Source: a virus | UHGV virus genome: UHGV-0122704 | Reading direction: 5' to 3' (one strand) | Length of the DNA: 43,652 bases | In this document: positions 783 to 36,700 of the stretch, in pieces | How the letters are laid out: every line of letters begins with the position of its first letter | How positions within the stretch are numbered: position 1 is the stretch's first letter | Notes under the pieces: generated by a model | Seen by the model: the letters and a program-made list of their open reading frames with translations, nothing else | Database searches by the model: none | Told to the model about the DNA's origin: nothing | Translations under genes and position numbers: made by a program

Positions 783-1244
783 ATGTCTATGAACATCAAA
801 TATGACACAACATCCCCTAGCTGCTTGGTGTGGCTCAAGGGTAGGCGCGCCGGTGCTCCAGCGGGTACCCGCAACACTCGTGGCTACTGGGTGGTACAGG
901 TATCTGGTAGAAAGATACAGGCACACCGCCTCATCTGGGAACTACACAACGGGCCTATTCCAGACGGATATGTGGTGGACCACATCAACCAAAACCCCGG
1001 TGACAACAGATTAGAGAACCTGCGCTTAGCTACGGTTAGCGAAAACAACTGTAACGCACGCAGGTCTAAGCGGGAACATCCTAGGGGTGTATACTACACT
1101 GGCACCTGCTGGCGCGGGGAGTTCTGGAAGGACGGTAAGCGTTACATGAAGAAGCACAGCTCCTACGAAGTTATCTGCAAGTGGGTACTAGAGAAACGTC
1201 AAGAGCAACACAAGGCCTTCACCCCGGGGCAGGTGTATATCTGA
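783..1244 (+). CDS. HNH homing endonuclease (HNH_3-type with AP2-like C-terminal domain)
   Basis: ATG 783 preceded by GAGGA. Motif HRLIWELHNGPIPDGYVVDHINQNPGDNRLENLRLATVSENN is a textbook phage HNH_3 signature; C-terminal GVYYTGTCWRGEFWKDGKRY resembles an AP2 DNA-binding domain. Confidence 0.85.
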   Translation: MSMNIKYDTTSPSCLVWLKGRRAGAPAGTRNTRGYWVVQVSGRKIQAHRLIWELHNGPIPDGYVVDHINQNPGDNRLENLRLATVSENNCNARRSKREHPRGVYYTGTCWRGEFWKDGKRYMKKHSSYEVICKWVLEKRQEQHKAFTPGQVYI

Positions 1245-1605
1245 AACCAAAAATTATTATACTCGCCCTTGAGCCTCCCTCACCCTCAACGACGCCAATT
1301 GCCCCCATAGGGGGTGCCTAGCGCATAAAAGGAGGGGTGGGGTGGGTGCCTAGACGTCTAGACGGCCCTAGGGCGCTCTCTGAGGTGTGGAGCGCCACGG
1401 CAGCTAAGACCGTGGCTATAGCGGAAGCCTCAGAGGGCCTCAGTGGCTCCCTGCGCTGCGCTGGGGCTATCGCTAGTGCTGCCCCACGGCTTGGCCTGTG
1501 CGTGGCACTGAGTGGCTCCTGTGCGCTCTACGGGGCACTAGGGGCTATCCCTGTGCGCTCCCTGTGGGCCGTAGGGGTGCGCTCTGCCTTGCTTATTTTG
1601 CGCGT

Positions 1606-1662
1606 CCATAGTGGGCCCGCCTAGTGCCTGCATTGTGGGGCCATAGTGGGCCTGCCTAGTGC
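1606..1662 (+). repeat. 22-bp direct repeat pair CCATAGTGGGCC(C/T)GCCTAGTGC
   Basis: 1606..1627 and 1641..1662 are identical except for one base. Confidence 0.85.
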
Positions 1663-1858
1663 GCTGTAGTGCGTCACGGTGCTATCCCTAGTATGCACTA
1701 GGCTATCCACTGGCTATCCCTAGTGCTTTACATTGTGCCGATTATATGCTACGCTGCGCGCTCCCCACTAGGGCGCACATCCTCACCCAACACTATCCCG
1801 GCGCTATCTCTTTGCTATCCCCTTGCTCTTACTTTCATTCGAAAGCTGTCATGAAATG

Positions 1859-1875
1859 ATGTTACAGGAGTAGGA
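1859..1875 (+). promoter_or_regulatory. Copy A of conserved motif ATGTTACAGGAGTAGGA (17-mer core)
   Basis: Exact 17-mer also present at 22584..22600 and 34492..34508; lies in the non-coding terminal region about 190 bp upstream of HNH gene 2067. Confidence 0.6.
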
Positions 1876-2066
1876 GGGTTTTAGGGCACTATATACACAC
1901 TACTTACTACTACTCACTAGTAGTCACTAGTATCCCCTAGTAATGCCCTGTATGACTGACCGTAGGGAGGGAAGCATTACCTAGAATCTTGTAACCTCCG
2001 CTCCTATCCCTCCGGGATATCGTCGCTATGGTTACGCTACTAATCACTATGTAAGGAGATATTGTT

Positions 2067-2483
2067 GTGGCTAGAACATTTAAGATTGTGGTTGATAAGG
2101 AAGGTTATCCAGTGATTAATGGTGCTGGGCCTGAGTATGTGAATAAGCGAGGTAAGAGAGACTATAAGACTGTGGCGCTGCATAGGGCCGTGGTTATGGA
2201 TGCTCTGGGAATCACTAGCTACGGTTCTGGCTATCACGTACATCACTGTGACAGTAACCGCCTTAACTGTGACTTCAATAACCTGATACTGGTTAGCGCT
2301 GACACTCACCGGGCCATACACTTAGCACAGATTCAGGAAGGGAGATGCTTCACAAAGGATGAGTTATTGGCTAGTCCTGAGTACGATACTAACTGGCGAG
2401 AGTTCGACGTGACTTATGGGGACTACAATAGTTTACTGCACGCAGACCTTTGGGGGTCTGCTTACTCTTTTTGCTCCCAGTGA
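2067..2483 (+). CDS. HNH endonuclease
   Basis: GTG start 8 nt after AAGGAG (2053..2058). Motif YHVHHCDSNRLNCDFNNLILVSADTHRAIH fits an HNH nuclease core. Confidence 0.75.
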   Translation: MARTFKIVVDKEGYPVINGAGPEYVNKRGKRDYKTVALHRAVVMDALGITSYGSGYHVHHCDSNRLNCDFNNLILVSADTHRAIHLAQIQEGRCFTKDELLASPEYDTNWREFDVTYGDYNSLLHADLWGSAYSFCSQ

Positions 2484-2503
2484 TAAAAAGTTTAAAAAAG
2501 TAC

Positions 2504-2533
2504 TTGCTTCTTTTGGTTCAATAGGGCTATAGT
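2504..2533 (+). promoter_or_regulatory. Candidate sigma70 early promoter (-35 TTGCTT, 18-nt spacer, -10 TATAGT) with A-rich upstream tract
   Basis: TTGCTT 2504..2509, TATAGT 2528..2533, preceded by AAAAAGTTTAAAAAAG; sits in the 600-bp non-coding leader ahead of the early genes. Confidence 0.45.
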
Positions 2534-2635
2534 TCAATCACCGGGAGGCACTGAGGCGCTAACCGGGGCAGAGTCGGGAGATTCAGCCGGATTAAAGCTA
2601 GATAGTGTGAAGGGTTAGACACTCAATAAAAAGAG

Positions 2636-2664
2636 TTGACACCGCGAAGAACATAAGCTAGATT
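2636..2664 (+). promoter_or_regulatory. Candidate sigma70 early promoter (-35 TTGACA, 17-nt spacer, -10 TAGATT)
   Basis: Consensus -35 TTGACA 2636..2641; -10-like TAGATT 2659..2664. Confidence 0.5.
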
Positions 2665-2704
2665 GAATCCCGAAGTAAGCAGTAAGGCAGTAAGAAATAA
2701 ACGC

Positions 2705-2733
2705 TTGACAAGTTCTGATTCACTGAGTAACTT
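2705..2733 (+). promoter_or_regulatory. Candidate sigma70 early promoter (-35 TTGACA, weak -10 TAACTT)
   Basis: Consensus -35 TTGACA 2705..2710; the -10 is poor, so this is the weakest of the three tandem candidates. Confidence 0.35.
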
Positions 2734-3083
2734 AGATAGCGAACAAGGCAAGGATAACCACTCTAGGGCGCAAGGATGTGTGTCCCGTCGGATTAGGCTA
2801 GACGTTAAAAATGACCTCTTAAAGGTTTAGTAGTAAGCTGGTTTGCGGGGAGGCCCAGTACCTTGACTGGTACGTTGACGACCCACCCCTAGACAATCAG
2901 TTAAAGAGTAAACGTGCCGGACGTTATCACCGGGGTTCTGAGACAAACCACACTGTCGAGGCGAGAGCAGCTCGCTCCTCTGAATCGAGGGAACAAGGCG
3001 CGGAGTGTATCCCGCAAAGAGCATATAACATAGCGCAGCAGTAACAAGGTTGCGCTAGATTATGTTCTCTGAGAGGTAAGAGT

Positions 3084-3281
3084 ATGCGCAAATCAAAGCG
3101 TTTAGCATTACGGCGGAATATGCAATTATCACTGAATCCCACCGACGACGTGCCGCTTACTGTGAAGCCTAGCAAACAAGGGTTGAGCAGTGAGCACAGG
3201 GTGAGGGGAAAGCAAAAACAAAAGGGCAGTAGCAGGCAGCCATCTGGATGGCCTACTGTTAACTCCCAATTTGGTCGATAA
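3084..3281 (+). CDS. Hypothetical early protein, small and strongly basic (65 aa)
   Basis: ATG 3084 preceded by GAGAGG; first ORF after the early promoter cluster; Lys/Arg-rich. Confidence 0.5.
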   Translation: MRKSKRLALRRNMQLSLNPTDDVPLTVKPSKQGLSSEHRVRGKQKQKGSSRQPSGWPTVNSQFGR

Positions 3282-3287
3282 TTACAG

Positions 3288-3317
3288 CCTATAGCATCCT
3301 ACGGGGTGCTATGTGAA
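3288..3317 (+). promoter_or_regulatory. Conserved intergenic stem-loop motif, copy 1 (CCTATAGCATCCTACGGGGTGCTATGTGAA)
   Basis: 27/30 identical to 4004..4033. Stem ATAGCA/TGCTAT plus CC/GG around a 4-nt loop; no T-run follows. Confidence 0.6.
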
Positions 3318-3352
3318 GTAATTACCTAAACAACCAATCAAAGAGGTGCATT

Positions 3353-3928
3353 ATGACCCATTCAACTGGTAAAGTATTCAAGCTCACCGCTGCGGGCAGC
3401 ATTCGTAAAGCGCTGGGCGACGTAGTGGAAGCAAAGCGCAACATCACTATTAGCGCGCTCTTCCACGGCCTGATTAGCAGCAACGTTTCCTGGGCTATGG
3501 ATATGCAGCGCAGCGATGCCGCGGACTTCGATATGGTGCTGCGTACGCTGCTGCCTATCAAGTTCAACAAGGAGTCCGGCAAATACGAATTCAACGCGAA
3601 GAAGTGCTATGCGTCTGCTGAGAAGCTGGGCATCGAACTGGACACTATGCGTCTGGACTATAAACAAGCTGACAAGCAGGAGCGCGAAGTAATTGTAGCC
3701 AGCTTCTATAGCTCCTGTATGGCCCTGTACGCTGCCGAAGCGGAGCAGGTAAAGAATGACGCGCTGGATGCCGATGCAGTGCGCTTGCAAGCGCTGGGGC
3801 GCGTTAAAAACGCTATCAAGAAGGCAAAAGAGACTGGTGTAAGCGACGCTGACCTCGTGTATATGCTGGTATCGCAGGGCGTGGATGTACGCGCTGTACT
3901 GGACGCAACTTTGAAGGCGGCGGCATGA
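3353..3928 (+). CDS. Hypothetical early protein (191 aa) with host-optimal codon bias, probably abundantly expressed
   Basis: ATG 3353 preceded by AAGAGG. Strong preference for CTG/CGT/AAC/TTC/ATC codons like the capsid gene. No recognisable domain. Confidence 0.7.
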   Translation: MTHSTGKVFKLTAAGSIRKALGDVVEAKRNITISALFHGLISSNVSWAMDMQRSDAADFDMVLRTLLPIKFNKESGKYEFNAKKCYASAEKLGIELDTMRLDYKQADKQEREVIVASFYSSCMALYAAEAEQVKNDALDADAVRLQALGRVKNAIKKAKETGVSDADLVYMLVSQGVDVRAVLDATLKAAA

Positions 3929-3996
3929 GCGTAGAATTCATGGTTATCATAACGGCGGTGGTGCTGTTATTTGTAGTGGCGGGCGAATATCTCTAG
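3925..3996 (+). CDS. Possible small hydrophobic peptide (23 aa, MSVEFMVIITAVVLLFVVAGEYL)
   Basis: ATGA start/stop overlap with the upstream gene; single predicted TM helix. Too short to support strongly. Confidence 0.3.
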   Translation: MSVEFMVIITAVVLLFVVAGEYL

Positions 3997-4003
3997 TAGC
4001 AAG

Positions 4004-4033
4004 CCTATAGCGTCCTGCGGGGCGCTATGTGAA
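4004..4033 (+). promoter_or_regulatory. Conserved intergenic stem-loop motif, copy 2 (CCTATAGCGTCCTGCGGGGCGCTATGTGAA)
   Basis: Stem ATAGCG/CGCTAT carries a compensatory A-T to G-C change relative to copy 1; lies just upstream of gene 4046. Confidence 0.6.
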
Positions 4034-4045
4034 TGCAACTGGCGT

Positions 4046-4279
4046 ATGGGGTTTCATATGAAAGCAATACTGGTCTATCCGGGCCATGAACTCTGGCCCG
4101 TGTGGTGCAATCGGGTATACGCAGAATACAACTACACTGTGGTCATATTCTCTGACAAAGACACTAATCAGGAATCCCCTTTAGAATTTGTGGATACCTA
4201 CACCGAAATGGCTGCCCGCACTGTGCTGGACGCCGTGAATCTTGGCATTATCAACGACTGGAGACAACTTTATGGTTAA
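4046..4279 (+). CDS. Hypothetical early protein (77 aa; alternative start ATG 4058)
   Basis: ORF in the early gene array; weak RBS, start uncertain. Confidence 0.45.
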   Translation: MGFHMKAILVYPGHELWPVWCNRVYAEYNYTVVIFSDKDTNQESPLEFVDTYTEMAARTVLDAVNLGIINDWRQLYG

Positions 4280-6994: not shown

Positions 6995-8055
6995 TGTTCT
7001 TGAATCCGCACGGGATTGATATGCAGCTGCTCTTGCAGATACTGCAAACGCACCGGCCTAGCTGGGGTAGCACTAAGTGGTTCGAGCCGCTGCTTATGCA
7101 GTCGCTACAGGCGCTGGGTAGTGGTATGCACTACGTAAAGGACAAGCACGGGAACTACTTCGTGCTGGTGGGGGACTCAGAGCAAAGTGACGTAGCGTTT
7201 ACGTCTCATCTCGACACAGTGGCACGACCAACCAGCGCTGCGCCGGACGTCGGCTGCACTAACAAGGGCGTGCTGTTCGTAAAGAATCCGCAACAAGCTG
7301 ACTGCTTGGGCGCCGACTGCGGCGCCGGTATCTACCTGATGCTGGAGATGCTGCGGCGCGGCGTGCACGGACGCTACTGCTTCTTCGTGGATGAAGAGGT
7401 AGGCTGCGAGGGTAGCGCTGCATCGGTCAAGGATGACTCTGGATTTTGGACTGGGGTCAAGGCGATGATTAGCTTCGACCGCCGCGGCGACGGTATCATT
7501 ACGCATCAAAGGTATATGCGCTGCTGCTCTGACACCTTTGCCAAGACCCTAGCAGAGCGCCTGGGACGCACGGAGCAGCACTTGCAGAAGGGTGTTTATA
7601 CTGACTCGGCTGAGTTCGTTGGCATCATTCCTGAGTGCACCAACGTCGGTGTAGGGTACATGCACGAGCACACCCCGGATGAGGTGCTGGACCTGAACAT
7701 ACTGGGCCAGGTGCTTGAGCGGGTACTACAAGACGGCACGTTCTCGCACCTCCCTATTGAGCGGGACCCGGCAGTAGCAGAGCCAGACCTATGCCAGTGG
7801 CTCGCTGCATCGACGCTCAGTTTACGGCAGCCGTGGGATATGCCGCCGGACGAGGACCCGCAGTTACTGGCCGCGTTCCGGGAAGTATCGCAGCTTTCTA
7901 AACAACAACTGGTTAGCTGGGTACAGGAGAATCCAGAGAAGGCGGCGGAGTACATAATGGTGTTCTCCGATTACGGCTTTAAAGAAGAACTGATTGAACT
8001 AGGCACCCGAGTCGTAGAAGACTGGGGCGGATACGATAATATTGTGGAGGGTTGA
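6994..8055 (+). CDS. Putative Zn-metallopeptidase-like protein (M20/M28/M42-like ligand pattern)
   Basis: Ordered candidate metal ligands HLD (TSHLDTV), D (GADCGAG), EE (FVDEEVG), D (FDRRGDG), H (MHEHT) match the co-catalytic zinc exopeptidase pattern. Motif-level inference only. Confidence 0.5.
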   Translation: MFLNPHGIDMQLLLQILQTHRPSWGSTKWFEPLLMQSLQALGSGMHYVKDKHGNYFVLVGDSEQSDVAFTSHLDTVARPTSAAPDVGCTNKGVLFVKNPQQADCLGADCGAGIYLMLEMLRRGVHGRYCFFVDEEVGCEGSAASVKDDSGFWTGVKAMISFDRRGDGIITHQRYMRCCSDTFAKTLAERLGRTEQHLQKGVYTDSAEFVGIIPECTNVGVGYMHEHTPDEVLDLNILGQVLERVLQDGTFSHLPIERDPAVAEPDLCQWLAASTLSLRQPWDMPPDEDPQLLAAFREVSQLSKQQLVSWVQENPEKAAEYIMVFSDYGFKEELIELGTRVVEDWGGYDNIVEG

Positions 8056-20106: not shown

Positions 20107-22575
20107 ATGATTAGCGCCCTGAATACGGTTGTAGTACCAGAGGAAGCACTGGTGAAACGCCAGCTGGAGCTTGAAGAGACCTATAAGATTCGCGGAATCG
20201 AGCGGGCACGTAAGCTGATTACGGACGCATTGCAGAACGGTGGGATTATGAACCTGCCGATGACGCAGCGTATGCTCACCTCGGCATATGAGGTGGCCGC
20301 CGCCGCTATCGATGAGATGCGAAATGTAAAAGCCCCGGGCATTGGCGGTAAGTACCGCCGGTTCCTGCGCTTAGTCCCCTTGGATGTCCTGACCACCCTG
20401 AGCCTATGCACAATGTTTGAGGCATTTAGCGTAGCTCCTGGCGAGTCCGCTAGCCGCCGCCAGACTGCACAGGCGGTAATGTCCGCGCTGGGCCGGAACG
20501 TACAATCGGAACTGCTGGCCCTGCAGTTACGCAACGTGGCTCCGGCGTACATGGACCGTGTGTACGAGTACCTTACGGAGCGTAAGACCAAGTCTCCCAC
20601 GCACATCCTGCGTACGCTGCGGGCCAGTGCTGAGAACGTGCACTATGGGCACGAGCCATGGACCAACTCCCAGAATATCTCAGTAGGTCGGCTGCTATGT
20701 GCCGCGGTGTTTGAGACTGGCCTGTTCCAATGGAAGAACTGTAGTGGGAACCTGAGCATGCTCTACCCGGCTGACGATGTTATGGAGGCCTTCCAGAAAC
20801 TGGTAGAGTCCGCTGATACCGTAACCATGAAGCCGCCTATGCTGGTGCCACCGGTACAGCACACCACTATGTGGGATGGCGGGTACCTTACCCCCATCGA
20901 CAATCGCGGGACCTATCACAACTCGCACATCGACCGCGCGCGACTCCGTGAAGTAGCAGAAGCATTCAAGTCCGCGGACGGCATCAAAAAGGCGCTTAAT
21001 AAGGCGCAGGAAACCCCATACCGTATTAATAAGCGCATACTGGAACTGGTGCAAGAAGCACGGGCCCTGGGTATTGGGGTGGGCATGCCCCGCTCAGTAC
21101 CAGAGCCTAAACCGGAGTGGTACTTGGATGGAGTACCAAAAGAGAACTACACCGAAGAAGAACTGGACCGCTTCGGTGAGTGGAAGACGCGCATGTCCCT
21201 ATGGTACAGCGCAGACCGTAAGCGTGTGTCACAACTACGCAGCCTGTTGACCACGCTGGAAATGGCGGAGGAATTCAAAGATGAGAAAGCCCTGTACTTC
21301 CCGACTTGTGTGGACTGGCGCTACCGCCTGTACTTCAAGTCCTCGCTGCATCCCCAAGGTTCTGATTTGCAGAAAGCCCTTCTTGAATTCGGACGTGGCA
21401 AGCCTCTGGGAGAGCGCGGACTTTTCTGGCTTAAAGTGCACGTCGCCACTTGCTTTGGTTATGACAAAACCCTATTCGAAGACCGTGCAGCTTGGGTTGA
21501 TGCGAACTATGCAGAGATTGAGAGGCTCGCGGATTCTCCTCTTGATGCCCCTGCTTTTTCCTCTGCGGATAGCCCCTGGTGCCTGCTGGCCGCCGCTATC
21601 GACTTGGTTAATGCGGTTCGTTCTGGATGCCCAGAAGAGCATATTAGCCGAATCCCAGTTGCTATGGACGCTACAAACTCAGGTGGACAGCATCTCTCAG
21701 CGCTCCTGAGAGACCCTGTGGGCGGACGCTTGACGAACCTGTACTGGGAGGGTAATGATAAGAAAGCGGACCTGTACATGGACGTGAAGCGCCGTACGGA
21801 CGAGAAGGTGATACTGGACCTGGACAAGGAGGATTTCGTTATCCAGAGCACGTACTGGAGAGAGAACGAAATCACCCGCAGCATGACCAAGCGCCCTAGT
21901 ATGACCTACTTCTACAGCGCCACTGTGCGCAGCTGCAGCGACTACATCTTCGAAGGCGCTTGCGCTGAGGGGTACGAGGGTACTGAGACTAACAGTCTGT
22001 GGAACTTGTCATGCTACCTGGCTCCGCGTATGCGCACTGCTATCGAGGAGGCAAACCCAGCCGCAGCCGCAGTTATGGGGTACTTGCAGAACCTCGCTAG
22101 GCGTGTACCGGCAAGCCAGCATCTGCAGTGGTATACGCCGCTGGGTGGGCTCGTAATGAACCGCTACACGCAGCGTGAAGAAGTGCGCGTACGTATTGAC
22201 TGCATGAACCTATCAGCGGTACTGGTACACAACCGGGACTTCAAAACTTGCAACAAGCGCAAGGCAGCCTCCGGGATTGCCCCGAACTTTGTGCATAGCC
22301 TGGACAGTACGCACTTGATGATGGTGCTCTGCGCTGCGGAGGGTCTGGATATTGTGCCTATTCACGACTCGCTGGCTACTCACGCAGCTGACGTTGACGC
22401 TATGCATAGGCACATCCGTGAGCAGTTTGTGCGCCTGTATGAAGAGAATGACCTGCTTGGCGACATTACTCGCGCAGCAGCAGCAGCCGGGGCAGACTTG
22501 ACGGACCTGGACATGCCGGAAGTGGGCACTTTGGACATCCGGCAAGTGCTAGAATCCCCGTTCTTCTTCTGCTAA
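20107..22575 (+). CDS. Single-subunit DNA-dependent RNA polymerase (T7-like)
   Basis: Motif A VAMDATNSGGQHLSALLRD, motif B RSMTKRPSMTYFYSAT and motif C IHDSLATH correspond to the T7 RNAP catalytic motifs; RBS AAGGAGA. Confidence 0.95.
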   Translation: MISALNTVVVPEEALVKRQLELEETYKIRGIERARKLITDALQNGGIMNLPMTQRMLTSAYEVAAAAIDEMRNVKAPGIGGKYRRFLRLVPLDVLTTLSLCTMFEAFSVAPGESASRRQTAQAVMSALGRNVQSELLALQLRNVAPAYMDRVYEYLTERKTKSPTHILRTLRASAENVHYGHEPWTNSQNISVGRLLCAAVFETGLFQWKNCSGNLSMLYPADDVMEAFQKLVESADTVTMKPPMLVPPVQHTTMWDGGYLTPIDNRGTYHNSHIDRARLREVAEAFKSADGIKKALNKAQETPYRINKRILELVQEARALGIGVGMPRSVPEPKPEWYLDGVPKENYTEEELDRFGEWKTRMSLWYSADRKRVSQLRSLLTTLEMAEEFKDEKALYFPTCVDWRYRLYFKSSLHPQGSDLQKALLEFGRGKPLGERGLFWLKVHVATCFGYDKTLFEDRAAWVDANYAEIERLADSPLDAPAFSSADSPWCLLAAAIDLVNAVRSGCPEEHISRIPVAMDATNSGGQHLSALLRDPVGGRLTNLYWEGNDKKADLYMDVKRRTDEKVILDLDKEDFVIQSTYWRENEITRSMTKRPSMTYFYSATVRSCSDYIFEGACAEGYEGTETNSLWNLSCYLAPRMRTAIEEANPAAAAVMGYLQNLARRVPASQHLQWYTPLGGLVMNRYTQREEVRVRIDCMNLSAVLVHNRDFKTCNKRKAASGIAPNFVHSLDSTHLMMVLCAAEGLDIVPIHDSLATHAADVDAMHRHIREQFVRLYEENDLLGDITRAAAAAGADLTDLDMPEVGTLDIRQVLESPFFFC

Positions 22576-22581
22576 AAAATT

Positions 22582-22600
22582 TAATGTTACAGGAGTAGGA
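22582..22600 (+). promoter_or_regulatory. Copy B of conserved 19-bp motif TAATGTTACAGGAGTAGGA, abutting the start codon of gene 22601
   Basis: Exact 19-mer shared with 34490..34508 and 17-mer shared with 1859..1875. Sits between RNAP and the first late gene; its AGGAG doubles as the RBS. Confidence 0.6.
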
Positions 22601-33746: not shown

Positions 33747-36700
33747 ATGGCTCAGTTTCTGAACCAAGAACCGAATCCACAGGAAAAGGATTCTGCTAAG
33801 GGCGCAACACTTAAACCTGCGCCTGAGCGCGTAGATTGGAACGATGCCGGAGACAACGGCTTAAACGCACTGGAGCGTGCCTCCTTACTGGCGCAGGCCA
33901 AGACCCCAGCTACTACAGCCGGGGAGAGCTTTGCGTCTGGTATGGGTAACAGCATCATCGCCGCAGCTATCCGTAAGGCCTCTGCCCCGGCATTTGACCG
34001 GGACCAGAACTTTAACGCCAAGCAGACTCTGAGCAGCGATACCAGGGCTAAGCTGTATGCTCCGAATCAGGAAGAGATTGAGTACCTGCACGACTCTGTA
34101 TCGGTCGAGGATTACAACTACCGCATGCAGCAGATGCTTGAGCAACGCAACCGTGACCGCTTAATGGCTGACAACACGGTAGCCGGGTTCGCGGGTATGT
34201 TGGTGGGTGATTCTCCGTTCATCCTGGCCCCGATGTCTGCCGCTGGTATTGCTGGCCGCGCAGGCTTAGCTGCACGGACTGCTATCCGCGCTGCTGACGT
34301 AGGCTCCGCATTCTATGCGCAGGACCAACTGGGCCAGTCTGCTGCGGTAACTGCACTGGTAGCGGGCGTAGCTGGGTTGGACCAGCTCTGGGATATGTCT
34401 AGGGCTGCTAAAGCTGCTGCTAAGGCTCGTACTGGGCGTGAGCCTATGTTCGACCCAGAAGCGCCTACAACTCGTACAGCGAGGGACGCTAATGTTACAG
34501 GAGTAGGAGAGGGAGAGGAAATCCTTACTAAGACACTGGATGAAAGCATCCAAGTATCTAGAAACAATACCGCCTCCGTGAACATGAAAGCACAGCACGT
34601 AGTTCAGTTCTTGAAGAAGTCCGAACACTTAACAGCAGGCCAGAAGGCTATTCTGGACACGCTGGGCGATGCTGTAAATGACATTGATTTTAAACTGGTA
34701 GCAGGCTCCGCAAACCGCAGCCGCTACACTTACGCACAGCAAGATTTAGCTAAGCGTGGAGAGGTGTCTCTACGCGCACCTAAGCGAGCTAATGGCAGCA
34801 CATGGACTACAGCAGGGGACGCACTGCGTGCTATGGATGCAGACACAAGCAGGGTAGCCGTGCACGAACTGATTCATGCCGCCACTGCGCGCGCCGTTGA
34901 CAGTAACCCAGAGATTGCTAAGCGCCTGGATGAAGTGCGCGCTGTTATTGCAGCGGACTCCACCTTGACGCCGCGTATGCGGTATTACGCTAGTAATGTG
35001 CACGAGATGCTGGCAGGCTTAGGTGACAGCCCTGAGTGGGTTGAGCATCTGGCGCGGACGAAATCCCCAACCGGTAAGAGCATGCTCCGCCAACTGGGCG
35101 AGTACATCATGAATGCCCTGGGCATCAAGGCCAAAGGTTCTGCCTTGGAAGATGTCTTGGATGCGTACGAGGACGCCGTTAAGTGGACAGCTAAGGATTA
35201 TGCAGACCAAGCCCAGGGCTTCCGTAGTGAAGCCTTCCAGGACCTGGCGGGCAGCACTACCCTAAACGAGGCTAAGGGTGCCCAAGCTATGCTGGATGGC
35301 GCTAAGAAGAAGCTCTCTACTATGTTTGCCCTGTACGATAACATCGCTCAAGGCAATGAAGACTTGGCTAAACTGCTAGTGTCGGATGCGTCCGCAGTAG
35401 GCGGCCGTCGCCCGTCTGTAGTGGACTTCAAGCGCAACCTCACTTTGGAGATGGACGCCAGCGCTAGCGTAGTGGAAGACGCTATCCTGGGCGCGTTGAA
35501 GGATAAGGGTGTAGGTTTCTCTGAGCGCTTCTTCCATCGGAGCAAGTTCCGCGCTGAGCGGGCTGCACTGGAAGACCGCCTGAGCAAGTACCTGGATGCT
35601 GCCTACAGTGCTGATGTAAACGGCCGAGCTGTTCCCGTACCGGATGCAGAGATTGCCCCACTGGTTGACGCCTATCGCCGCTCTGGCTGGGCAGGCAAGT
35701 GGCACGAGCATATGCTCAATGCTGGTCTAGTGGATGATGGTGCGTTGGTTAAATCCGATTACTACTTCCCGCGTCAGTACAGCTACGACAAGATGCGCCA
35801 AGGTATTGCGCAGGGTAACACTCTGGACGACTACCGCGCCCTGTTCAGGTCCGCCCTGCGGGACGTGTACCCGAGCATGGAGTCAGAGGTAGTGCAGCGT
35901 GTTGCAAAGGAGATGGTTGACGGTATCTACAACGGCCGTGCAGGGCAGTCCGGCCCGATGTGGAAGCAGCTGATTAACGGCATGGGTAACGACGAGGTCG
36001 TTATGGCTATGCGTAGCGCTGGTGTAGATGAATCTGCAATCCAGAGTTTCCTGGCTGGTAACGTACGCGAATCCGGTAGCACATCCCCTGCGCGGAACCT
36101 GCGTCAGCGTACTCGGTTCAACATGGACAAAGAGTATCTGGTGAACGGTAAGAGCATGCGCATGCAGGACCTGATGGATACTGATGTAGCCAAGGTTATG
36201 CACGGGTACACTAACCGTATGTCTGGGCGTGTAGGCATGGCCTATGCAGGCGTACAGGACCTGGGCCAGCTAGCTAAGATGATTGATGAGTCTAAGCACG
36301 CACTGGCGGATTCCGCTAAGTGGGAGAAGACAGTCAATGACACCATCGACTTTATCCTGGGTGGGGCGCCTGCTGACGCCGGACAGCTTCCGGATTTGCT
36401 GCGTGCAGCCGGGAACATGGCTAACGCCACCATGCTTAAGAACTCCGGCCTGTATCAGCTGACTGACACTGCCCTGGCTATGAAGGAGTTCGGTATGGCT
36501 AGAGTGCTGCGTAGTATGCGTGACCAGCCTTGGTTCAAGGAAGGTGCCGTAGCTATCAAGACTCCGGATATGGCTACCCGTCTAGACACTGTACTGCGAG
36601 GTAATATCCAGAAGGAGATGCGCTTCCGCTGGTTGAATACGTACGCCGACGATAACCTGGACCTGACCCGTCAGGCCTCTTGGTTCAATGTAACCCAGAA

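What the first reader, a model, noticed from the sequence alone, without database searches (positions are those of the whole stretch)
2484..3083. 600-bp non-coding early leader with three tandem sigma70 promoter candidates
Candidates are TTGCTT-18-TATAGT at 2504..2533 with an A-rich upstream tract, TTGACA-17-TAGATT at 2636..2664 and TTGACA-17-TAACTT at 2705..2733, all facing the early genes. This mirrors the tandem strong early promoters of T7. One HNH gene (2067..2483) lies upstream of the cluster, between the putative genome end and the promoters.
Basis: partly seen in the sequence, partly recalled or inferred. Interest (0 to 1): 0.4.

Follow-up and report, generated by a model that had tools for sequence, protein, structure and literature searches.

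The report
Tandem host promoters in phage leader
The 600-base gap is the early leader of a KP34-like Klebsiella phage: three host-type promoters in a row that start the infection programme as in phage T7, already predicted in relatives and so ordinary, but followed by a conserved folded RNA element that appears undescribed.

Summary
The window is a circularly permuted Klebsiella Drulisvirus (KP34-like) genome. Positions 2484-3083 hold no conserved ORF and carry the three hexamer pairs exactly as reported.

The promoter reading is well supported by computation:
- The three sites rank 1, 3 and 24 of 87,244 positions in a whole-window sigma70 scan.
- Across 36 relatives the hexamers are about 14 times better conserved than the sequence around them.
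- The P3 cassette keeps an exact 17-nt spacer in several genera while the spacer sequence changes freely.
- In a sister subgroup, the slot that holds P2+P3 here holds a segment about 90% identical to the T7 A2 promoter.

P2 and P3 are letter-for-letter the "host promoters" predicted for KP34-like phages in 2015, so the finding is already known. No transcription start has been mapped in this genus.

New context:
- The HNH gene is a mobile insertion downstream of a proven KP34-RNAP promoter (1857-1872), not of the host promoters.
- The leader RNA is structured.
- One ~65-nt element (2837-2901), always just after the last promoter, shows strong covariation across lineages and has no Rfam match.

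Interest of the finding as written is low. The RNA element is the only part worth following up.

The parts
2484..3083 (+). Non-coding early leader between the HNH stop codon and the first early gene
   Evidence: No conserved ORF. The small ORFs have no family hits. Relatives show a mosaic of conserved blocks and indels.
2487..2541 (+). P1: A/T-rich UP-like tract (2487-2503), -35 TTGCTT (2504-2509), 18-nt spacer, -10 TATAGT (2528-2533). Predicted start is about 2540-2541.
   Evidence: rank 24 of 87,244; hexamers nearly invariant, spacer 2520-2527 variable. Analogues: LIMElight TTGCAA-17-TAGTAT, phiKDA1 TTGACA-17-TAGAGT, and TTGCTT-18-TATATT followed by ...ATCGAAAG in the sister subgroup.
2567..2588 (+). 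Hairpin GGCAGAGUC-GGGA-GAUUCAGCC (GNRA-type loop) in the P1 transcript, enclosed by helix 2548-2553/2603-2608
   Evidence: 100% of cells paired. U-A changes to C-G in 15 of 33 sequences; several G-C/G-U switches occur and none breaks a pair. Folding z-score is -2.7.
2624..2672 (+). P2: AAUAAAAAGAG tract, -35 TTGACA (2636-2641), 17-nt spacer, -10 TAGATT (2659-2664). Predicted start is about 2671-2672.
   Evidence: Best sigma70 score in the whole window and 10 of 12. Identical to the predicted host promoter of SU552A (and to what Table 3 prints for KP34, which is cut short) in PMC4411677; annotated.
2693..2741 (+). P3: GAAAUAAACGC tract, -35 TTGACA (2705-2710), 17-nt spacer, -10 TAACTT (2728-2733). 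Predicted start is about 2740-2741.
   Evidence: Rank 3, level on score with rank 2. All 39 collection matches with a 17-nt spacer sit in the same promoter context, with at least 9 different spacer sequences across genera; matches with other spacer lengths are unrelated contexts. Identical to the NTUH-K2044-K1-1 predicted promoter.
2741..2828 (+). 88-bp variable insert in the transcribed leader, present in only a few relatives
2837..2901 (+). Module C, a conserved structured leader-RNA element: outer helix 2837-2843/2895-2901, inner hairpin 2858-2862/2869-2873, and conserved unpaired UUGCGG, UGACGAC and CCUAGA
   Evidence: one copy per genome, always just after the last host-type promoter. In 43 distinct sequences, 96% of cells are paired and 8 of 15 pairs change on both sides; the outer helix is fully replaced in a sister subgroup. 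No Rfam match.
2960..2976 (+). Small hairpin GGCGAG-AGCAG-CUCGCU in the 5' UTR module that travels with gene 3084-3281
   Evidence: A-U changes to U-A in 3 of 10 sequences. The hairpin is also present in LIMElight.
3018..3070 (+). Long imperfect hairpin immediately upstream of the Shine-Dalgarno sequence of the first early gene. It is a candidate processing or stability site, positioned like T7 R0.3.
   Evidence: -23.2 kcal/mol, z = -5.3; the upper stem varies only by G-C/G-U switches.
3084..3281 (+). First early gene (65 aa, unknown function)
   Evidence: PHROG 32970, E = 1e-42. Annotated as gp01 in AltoGao and SU503.
1857..1872 (+). KP34-type phage-RNAP strong promoter S2 (TGATGTTACAGGAGTA), upstream of the HNH gene and the leader. 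Positional analogue of T7 phiOL.
   Evidence: Exact match (3 matches in the window against 0.06 expected). Its activity was shown for KP34 in vitro (PMC6834552).
2067..2483 (+). HNH endonuclease gene, a mobile insertion between S2 and P1
   Evidence: PF13392. The S2-to-P1 distance is 275-364 nt in relatives without it and 623-647 nt in those with it.
2442..2461 (+). Terminator-like hairpin at the 3' end of the HNH insertion, followed by UUACUCUUUUU
   Evidence: -13.6 kcal/mol, z = -2.4. The 5' arm is supplied by the insertion. Other inserts at this site carry their own hairpins.

Best explanation
Positions 2484-3083 are the early leader of a KP34-like (Drulisvirus) podophage.

**Proposed mechanism**
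- After the left end of the genome (about window 1278) enters the cell, the host's sigma70 RNA polymerase starts at three tandem promoters. Predicted starts are P1 at about 2540, P2 at about 2671 and P3 at about 2740.
- It transcribes rightward through a roughly 340-540-nt structured leader into the early genes.
- Because the phage RNA polymerase gene lies at 20107-22575, the host enzyme probably continues through much of the first 20 kb.
- Once the phage polymerase is made, its promoter S2 at 1857-1872 can re-transcribe the same region. S2 is also what expresses the inserted HNH gene.
- The leader RNA carries conserved hairpins and one conserved ~65-nt element (2837-2901). These most likely act in cis on the early transcripts, through processing, stability or elongation control.

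**Shown versus inferred**
- Shown by computation: the promoter-type sequence constraint, the layout and the RNA covariation.
- Inferred from T7 and LUZ19: actual initiation by host polymerase, promoter strength, any role in DNA entry, and the function of the RNA element.
For: **The sites are there and stand out**
- Hexamers and spacings are verified. They rank 1, 3 and 24 of 87,244 positions, and the clustering has P of about 0.04.

**Conservation pattern in 36 distinct Drulisvirus leaders**
- The mean mismatch is 0.7% in the 36 hexamer columns and 9.9% in the other 221 columns.
- Variable columns number 7 of 36 against 107 of 221 (Fisher P = 0.001).

**Spacer behaviour of the P3 cassette**
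- TTGACA-N17-TAACTTAGATAG recurs with exactly 17 nt and at least 9 unrelated spacer sequences.
- It occurs in Drulisvirus, Koutsourovirus, Limelightvirus and other contigs.

**Same arrangement elsewhere**
- Tandem arrays of 2-4 such sites precede the early genes in those genera. The LIMElight record annotates five putative host promoters.
- In a sister subgroup (loci L009, L012, L023, L030, L043), the slot that holds P2+P3 here holds a segment 89-92% identical to T7 nt 541-610, the A2 promoter region (E = 1e-16 to 3e-20).
- LIMElight 880-935 matches T7 531-586.

**Layout parallels T7**
- This genome: terminal repeat, phage promoter S2, then host promoters.
- T7: phiOL at 405, then A1, A2 and A3 at 498, 626 and 750.

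**Literature**
- P2 and P3 are predicted as host promoters in PMC4411677.
- LUZ19, a phiKMV-like phage, has five mapped promoters at its left end, four of them resembling the bacterial consensus; of these only P005 gave a significant reporter signal in P. aeruginosa, where P002-P004 yielded no data (PMC10914365).

**No competing start sites**
- The only strong phage-RNAP promoters are at 1857, 22582 and 34490.
- No comparable sigma70 site lies in 3-22 kb.

**The + strand is transcribed and folded**
- Variation in the leader helices is pair-preserving and includes G-U intermediates.
Against: - No transcription start, RNA-seq or reporter data exist for any Drulisvirus in the literature searched.
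- P1 matches only 3 of 6 in its -35, and P3 only 3 of 6 in its -10. The simple consensus scan flags P2 alone and finds no overall enrichment.
- A Drulisvirus profile does not detect T7 A1-A3 directly. Homology with T7 is shown for sister leaders and LIMElight, not for the window's own cassettes.
- The relatives are closely related, so the conservation statistics are not independent samples.
- The pattern used fixed the hexamers. Only the spacer length and spacer sequence are informative there.
- Some relatives lack P3, so no single promoter is indispensable.
Confidence: 0.85

Rival explanations
1. Only P2 and P3 (or P2 alone) are real promoters. P1 would be a conserved A/T-rich sequence with another role, for example the end of the upstream non-coding region or part of the insulating terminator.
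For: - P1 scores lowest (rank 24) and its -35 matches 3 of 6.
- Eriksson et al. did not list it.
- It directly follows the conserved CTTACCCTTTTTGCTC tract.
Against: - TTGCTT and TATAGT are nearly invariant while the spacer varies.
- The 18-nt spacing is kept in the sister subgroup, where the initial transcribed sequence reads ATCGAAAG, like T7 A1's ATCGAGAG.
- LIMElight and phiKDA1 have better-scoring promoters at the same relative place.
- The hairpin 2567-2588 downstream covaries as RNA. That requires transcription from upstream of P2, although S2 read-through could also supply it.
Confidence: 0.2
2. The region encodes small proteins, as several GenBank records annotate, and the hexamers are incidental.
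For: AttikonH4 and phi1_066009 annotate 3-5 hypothetical CDSs of 30-70 aa on both strands in the homologous region.
Against: - None of these ORFs has a Pfam or PHROG match.
- The annotated CDSs differ between records and lie on both strands.
- Indels of 8, 88 and about 90-150 nt interrupt every frame across relatives.
- The best-conserved blocks are conserved at all three codon positions, and changes preserve base pairs rather than codons.
- RefSeq records leave the region unannotated.
Confidence: 0.03
3. The conserved blocks act at the DNA level, as a replication origin, a packaging or nick site, or recombination linkers between mosaic modules, rather than as promoters or RNA.
For: - The region is a mosaic whose breakpoints flank the conserved blocks, as expected if the blocks serve as homology arms.
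- Phages related to phiKMV carry site-specific nicks (PMC7291057).
- Module C contains CGAC-N5-CCTA, which resembles the nick consensus I recall for phiKMV-like phages.
Against: - CGAC-N4-6-CCTA is not enriched: 3 found against 4.0 expected.
- The one nick mapped in a Drulisvirus is at nt 7873, not in the leader.
- Helices tolerate G-U intermediates and compensatory changes on the + strand, which points to RNA.
- There is no marked AT-rich or skew anomaly beyond a mild GC dip to about 0.44-0.45.
- A linker role does not explain hexamer-specific conservation with a fixed spacer length.
Confidence: 0.05

Closest known systems
Predicted host (sigma70) promoters of the 'Kp34likevirus' genus (Eriksson et al. 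2015, PMC4411677, Table 3; annotated in NC_028816 and KP708986)
   Same: P2 is letter-for-letter the SU552A site (874..902) and matches what Table 3 prints for KP34 (931..959, cut short there). P3 is letter-for-letter the NTUH-K2044-K1-1 site (1022..1050). Position and orientation are the same, upstream of the first operon.
   Different: P1 is not in that list. SU552A instead lists a weaker site just upstream, equivalent to window 2453-2480. Those are predictions only; nothing was measured.
Phage T7 early promoters A1, A2 and A3 with the upstream phiOL promoter
   Same: - Three tandem sigma70 promoters sit within about 1.5 kb of the left end, downstream of the terminal repeat and of a phage-RNAP promoter.
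- All face the early genes. -35 boxes are near-perfect and -10 boxes imperfect.
- Starts are spaced 131 and 69 nt apart here, against 128 and 124 nt in T7.
- A structured leader precedes the first gene.
- Sister Drulisvirus leaders contain a segment about 90% identical to the T7 A2 region.
   Different: - The window's own cassettes are not detectably homologous to T7 A1-A3.
- The leader is longer.
- The phage RNAP gene lies about 17 kb further downstream than in T7, so host transcription must run much further or hand over to S2.
- An HNH gene is inserted between the phage promoter and the host promoters.
LUZ19 (phiKMV-like) left-end promoters P002-P006, mapped by ONT-cappable-seq (PMC10914365)
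   Same: A cluster of promoters, four of the five resembling the bacterial consensus, sits at the leftmost end upstream of the first gene in a phage whose RNAP gene follows the DNA-metabolism genes.
   Different: The host is Pseudomonas, there is no sequence similarity, and the LUZ19 sites were mapped experimentally whereas these were not.
Pantoea phage LIMElight and Enterobacter phage phiKDA1 early leaders
   Same: Both share the P3 cassette (nhmmer E = 5e-10 and 2e-10). LIMElight also shares module C and a 5' UTR hairpin.
   Different: The number and order of cassettes differ. LIMElight combines T7-like and KP34-like cassettes.

Membership tests
Bacterial sigma70 (housekeeping) promoter | -35 and -10 hexamers resembling TTGACA/TATAAT, separated by 17 +/- 1 bp, with A at -11 and T at -7 | tested here: met
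   - P1 matches 3/6 + 5/6 with an 18-nt spacer.
- P2 matches 6/6 + 4/6 with a 17-nt spacer.
- P3 matches 6/6 + 3/6 with a 17-nt spacer.
- All three keep TA at positions 1-2 and T at position 6 of the -10.
Bacterial sigma70 (housekeeping) promoter | Purifying selection on hexamers and spacer length but not on spacer sequence | tested here: met
   Hexamer mismatch is 0.7% against 9.9% elsewhere. The P3 spacer is always 17 nt, with at least 9 different sequences.
Bacterial sigma70 (housekeeping) promoter | Transcription initiates about 7 nt downstream of the -10, by the host holoenzyme | not testable with these tools
   No 5'-end data for any Drulisvirus were found in the literature searched.
T7-type tandem early promoter array at the leading genome end | Located just inside the left terminal repeat, all oriented towards the early genes, two or more in tandem | tested here: met
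   The left end maps to about window 1278 and the repeat runs to about 1594, by alignment with AttikonH4, AltoGao and SU503. The promoters are at 2504-2733 on the + strand.
T7-type tandem early promoter array at the leading genome end | Phage-RNAP promoter upstream of the host promoters (phiOL-like) | tested here: met
   There is an exact KP34 S2 promoter at 1857-1872, shown active in vitro for KP34. T7 phiOL is at 405 and A1 at 498.
T7-type tandem early promoter array at the leading genome end | Sequence homology to T7 A1, A2 or A3 | tested here: not met
   Drulisvirus profiles give no significant hit on the T7 leader. Homology to A2 exists in the sister subgroup and to the A1-A2 segment in LIMElight. 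The window is therefore a functional analogue in the same slot, not a demonstrated homologue.
T7-type tandem early promoter array at the leading genome end | Transcription by host RNAP pulls the rest of the genome into the cell | not testable with these tools
   This is known for T7 from the literature (my own knowledge). No data exist for Drulisvirus.
Any described RNA family (Rfam 15) | Covariance-model match | tested here: not met
   There were no matches at E <= 1 in 1200-4200 on either strand.
Single-subunit phage RNAP promoter (KP34 type) | Match to T(A/G)ATGTTACAGGAGTA or to the weak promoter | tested here: not met
   There are no matches inside 2484-3083. Matches occur only at 1857, 22582, 34490 and 22528.

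The most novel reading that the evidence does not exclude
The ~65-nt element at 2837-2901 (module C) is an undescribed cis-acting leader-RNA motif of enterobacterial Autographiviridae.

- It is placed immediately after the last host promoter, so every early transcript carries it.
- It might control the fate of host-polymerase transcripts through processing, stabilisation or, most interestingly, factor-independent anti-termination. The last would help the host enzyme cross the roughly 17 kb to the phage RNAP gene.
- The promoter cassettes and this element appear to be exchanged as modules between phage subfamilies, T7-like phages included.
Probability: 0.3. Interest if true: 0.55.

Novelty: already known. 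Interest (0 to 1): 0.25.

Why it matters
As written, the finding re-derives a textbook arrangement: T7-style tandem host promoters at the leading end of the genome. The same arrangement has been predicted for this genus since 2015.

Its practical value is for annotation and phage engineering:
- It marks where early transcription should start.
- It shows that the "hypothetical proteins" some records call in this region are probably spurious.
- It explains that the upstream HNH gene depends on the phage polymerase promoter.

Two by-products are more interesting:
- A covarying structured RNA element is carried by all early transcripts, has no Rfam counterpart and has no known function.
- There is clear evidence that host-promoter cassettes, including a near-copy of T7 A2, move horizontally between distant podophage lineages.

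Tried and rejected
- **Rfam scan** of 1200-4200 at E <= 1 found nothing. No tRNA or tmRNA was found.
- **Small-ORF reading.** There are no Pfam or PHROG hits and the frames are broken by indels.
- **Fourth sigma70 promoter inside module C** (TTGACT at 2863, TTGACG at 2875). No -10 lies at 16-18 nt, the second TTGAC is not conserved, and the spacing varies by 1-2 nt among relatives.
- **Nick-site idea** for CGAC-N5-CCTA in module C. The motif is not enriched and the mapped Drulisvirus nick is elsewhere.
- **Direct homology of the window's cassettes to T7.** BLAST and nhmmer were negative. A four-way MAFFT alignment was uninformative because of rearrangements.
- **boxA/nut-like sequence** CCTCTTAAAGG (2816-2826). 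It is only a weak match by eye and lies in the 88-bp insert that most relatives lack, so I did not pursue it.
- **Global fold of 2740-3100** is not unusually stable (z = -1.5), nor is module C alone (z = -0.5). Support for module C comes from covariation only.
- **Literature search** found no Drulisvirus transcription-start data.

Full report
**What the window is.** Megablast of 1900-3400 finds 245 phage records, almost all Klebsiella phages of the genus Drulisvirus (KP34-like; Autographiviridae, Slopekvirinae) at 85-97% identity.

The record is circularly permuted:
- It opens inside the C-terminus of a K1-lyase-type tailspike and a first HNH gene.
- The left physical end of relatives (CCTCACCCTCAACGACGCC...) maps to about window 1278.
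- The direct terminal repeat runs to about 1594.

**Check of the observation.** All three hexamer pairs are at the stated coordinates with the stated spacings.
- 2484-3083 lies between the stop codon of an HNH gene (2067-2483, PF13392) and the ATG of a 65-aa early gene (3084-3281, PHROG 32970).
- The five longest leader ORFs (39-82 aa, both strands), the ones tested, match no Pfam or PHROG family.
- Indels in relatives destroy these frames, including an 88-bp block (2741-2828) that most relatives lack.
- Some GenBank records nevertheless hypothetical proteins here, on both strands and inconsistently. RefSeq records leave the region empty.

**Is it more than chance?** The built-in consensus scan is not enriched (4 found against 6.1 expected) and lists only P2.
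- I scanned the whole window on both strands with a position-weight matrix. Its consensus frequencies were recalled from published promoter compilations and are therefore approximate.
- That scan ranks P2 first, P3 third (level with the second-ranked site on score) and P1 24th of 87,244 positions.
- Three of the top 24 falling within 230 nt on one strand occurs in about 4% of random placements.

**Comparative evidence.** I collected 39 loci through the neighbouring 191-aa protein and aligned 38 distinct leaders. Two very divergent leaders were then set aside, leaving 36 for the conservation counts.

The region is a mosaic:
- Block A (2458-2690) carries P1 and P2.
- A variable insert follows P2 in many relatives.
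- Block B (2691-2746) carries P3.
- The 88-bp insert comes next.
- Block C (2829-2901) is present in essentially all relatives.
- Block D (2907-3266) is the 5' UTR plus the 65-aa gene. Only a subset of relatives has it.

Within 2484-2740 the 36 hexamer columns have a mean mismatch of 0.7%, against 9.9% for the other 221 columns. Variable columns number 7 of 36 against 107 of 221 (Fisher P = 0.001). The sequences are related, so this is a footprint, not an independent-sample test.

A stronger test used a collection scan for TTGACA-N13-21-TAACTTAGATAG.
- All 39 matches with a 17-nt spacer sit in the same promoter context, with at least nine unrelated spacer sequences.
- They come from Drulisvirus, Koutsourovirus (phiKDA1), Limelightvirus and other contigs.
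- The 17 matches with other spacer lengths lie in unrelated contexts.
- Fixed length with free sequence is what a sigma70 spacer predicts.

Tandem arrays of 2-4 high-scoring sites precede the early genes in all these lineages. The LIMElight record annotates five putative host promoters.

**Link to T7.** T7 has phiOL at 405 and A1, A2 and A3 at 498, 626 and 750, ahead of gene 0.3 at 925.
- The window has S2 at 1857, the predicted starts at about 2540, 2671 and 2740, and the first gene at 3084.
- The window's own cassettes are not detectably homologous to T7.
- A sister subgroup of Drulisvirus leaders (L009, L012, L023, L030, L043) has a different arrangement. Their 191-aa early protein is 91-97% identical to the window's.
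- In those leaders, the slot between P1 and block C holds a segment 89-92% identical to T7 nt 541-610: ACGAAAAACAGGTATTGACAAC..., the A2 promoter (E = 1e-16 to 3e-20).
- Their P1 is followed by ATCGAAAG, like the ATCGAGAG start of the A1 transcript.
- LIMElight 880-935 is 84% identical to T7 531-586.

So the slot that holds P2+P3 in the window holds a near-copy of a biochemically proven E. coli RNA polymerase promoter in close relatives. This is the best available argument for functional equivalence. It also shows that promoter cassettes are exchanged between podophage subfamilies.

**What is already known.** Table 3 of Eriksson et al. 2015 lists predicted host promoters (PMC4411677):
- TTGACACCGCGAAGAACATAAGCTAGATT, which is P2.
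- TTGACAAGTTCTGATTCACTGAGTAACTT, which is P3.
- Sites of these two types are listed across KP34, SU503, SU552A, NTUH-K2044-K1-1 and F19.

The deposited records carry them as regulatory features. P1 is not listed. No experimental start-site mapping for the genus turned up. For phiKMV-like LUZ19, five promoters at the left end were mapped; four resemble the bacterial consensus, and of these P005 was active in reporter assays in both hosts (PMC10914365).

**The upstream HNH gene.** Lu et al. 2019 showed in vitro that KP34 RNA polymerase uses T(A/G)ATGTTACAGGAGTA, with one copy at KP34 nt 475-490 (PMC6834552).
- The window has exact copies at 1857-1872, 22582 and 34490. It also has the weak promoter at 22528, inside the RNAP gene 20107-22575.
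- The distance from S2 to P1 is 275-364 nt in relatives without an insert and 623-647 nt with this HNH gene.
- The HNH gene is therefore a mobile insertion between the phage promoter and the host promoters, and it is presumably expressed by the phage polymerase.
- The insertion supplies the 5' arm of a terminator-like hairpin (2442-2461, -13.6 kcal/mol). Other inserts at this site bring their own hairpins.

**The leader as RNA.** Several helices vary only in pair-preserving ways.
- Hairpin 2567-2588, with a GGGA loop, switches U-A to C-G in 15 of 33 sequences and has G-C/G-U switches. All its cells remain paired.
- Hairpin 2960-2976 switches A-U to U-A. It is retained in LIMElight.
- A long hairpin at 3018-3070 sits directly before the Shine-Dalgarno sequence and is unusually stable (z = -5.3).

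The most constrained block of the whole leader is block C.
- A covariance model built from 32 Drulisvirus copies finds exactly one copy per genome, always just downstream of the last host-type promoter.
- It also finds copies in the divergent subgroup, in a second lineage (L060, L089, L099) and in Limelightvirus. It finds none in T7 or Koutsourovirus.
- In 43 distinct sequences, 96% of cells are paired, against 23-44% when the partners are slid.
- Eight of 15 pairs change on both sides. The outer helix changes in 5 of 7 pairs: GCUGGUU/AAUCAGU in the window becomes AUCAUGU/ACAUGAU in the subgroup.
- The inner hairpin is 100% paired.
- That alignment was fitted to the model, which favours the structure. 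A plain MAFFT alignment across lineages gave the same helices, with 7 of 13 pairs compensated.
- The short GGG/CCC helix is weak (88% paired).
- Thermodynamic stability is unremarkable (z = -0.5), and there is no Rfam match.
- The unpaired UUGCGG, UGAC(G/C)AC and CCUAGA segments are conserved.
- Function is unknown. Processing, stability and elongation control are inferences only.

**Mechanism and confidence.** I put 0.85 on the statement that this is the host-polymerase early promoter array, with at least P2 and P3 active, driving a structured leader into the early genes. P1 alone I put at about 0.7.
- No comparable sigma70 site lies between 3 and 22 kb.
- The only strong phage promoters are at 1857, 22582 and 34490.
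- The first 20 kb must therefore be read from this leader by host polymerase and later from S2. The relative contributions are unknown.

**Verdict.** The finding itself is of low interest. The covarying leader element and the T7-A2 cassette exchange are modest new leads.

Noticed in passing
window 2837-2901: Conserved ~65-nt structured RNA element (module C), found immediately after the last host-type promoter in Drulisvirus, a divergent subgroup, a second lineage and Limelightvirus. Covariation is strong (the outer helix is fully replaced in some), there is no Rfam match, and function is unknown.
   Followed up: yes
L009 2270-2333, L030 1516-1583, L043 2406-2469, L012 2303-2366, L023 1122-1175: Sister Drulisvirus leaders carry a segment 89-92% identical to T7 nt 541-610 (the A2 promoter region) in the slot where the window has P2+P3. 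LIMElight 880-935 also matches T7 531-586. This implies horizontal exchange of host-promoter cassettes between podophage subfamilies.
   Followed up: partly
window 1857-1872, 22582-22597, 34490-34505, 22528-22547: Exact copies of the three KP34 RNA polymerase strong promoters, plus the weak promoter inside the RNAP gene (20107-22575). The first lies upstream of the HNH gene and the leader, like T7 phiOL.
   Followed up: yes
window 3286-3317 and 4002-4033: A 32-nt repeat forms a 10-bp hairpin (z = -3.7), with an A-U to G-C compensatory difference between the two copies. It was predicted in 2015 to be the phage promoter but was inactive with KP34 RNAP in vitro. It is more likely an intergenic RNA hairpin for processing or stability.
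   Followed up: partly
window 3018-3070: An unusually stable long imperfect hairpin (-23.2 kcal/mol, z = -5.3) lies directly upstream of the Shine-Dalgarno sequence of the first early gene. It is positioned like the T7 R0.3 RNase III site.
   Followed up: partly
window 2442-2461; L030 and L032 upstream of P1: Different mobile inserts (HNH genes) between S2 and P1 each end in their own terminator-like hairpin just before P1. In the window a TAG-to-TGG change in the hairpin loop extends the HNH ORF by 10 codons compared with AttikonH4.
   Followed up: partly
window 783-1244 and 1-686: A second HNH endonuclease gene (PF13392) sits next to the right genome end. The window begins inside a tailspike C-terminus with a K1-lyase_C domain. 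The record is circularly permuted, with the physical left end at about 1278.
   Followed up: partly
window 2741-2828: An 88-bp block in the transcribed leader is present in only a few relatives. It contains a weak boxA-like CCTCTTAAAGG and a small hairpin.
   Followed up: no
L001 1123-1712; L002 2058-2701: GenBank records of close relatives annotate several short hypothetical CDSs, on both strands, inside the homologous leader. These are probably over-calls.
   Followed up: partly
window 2598-2605, 2657-2664, 2732-2739, 2796-2802, 2888-2894, 3054-3061: The motif (G)CTAGA(T/C) recurs six times in the leader. Two copies coincide with or abut the -10 boxes of P2 and P3. I did not test it for enrichment.
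   Followed up: no
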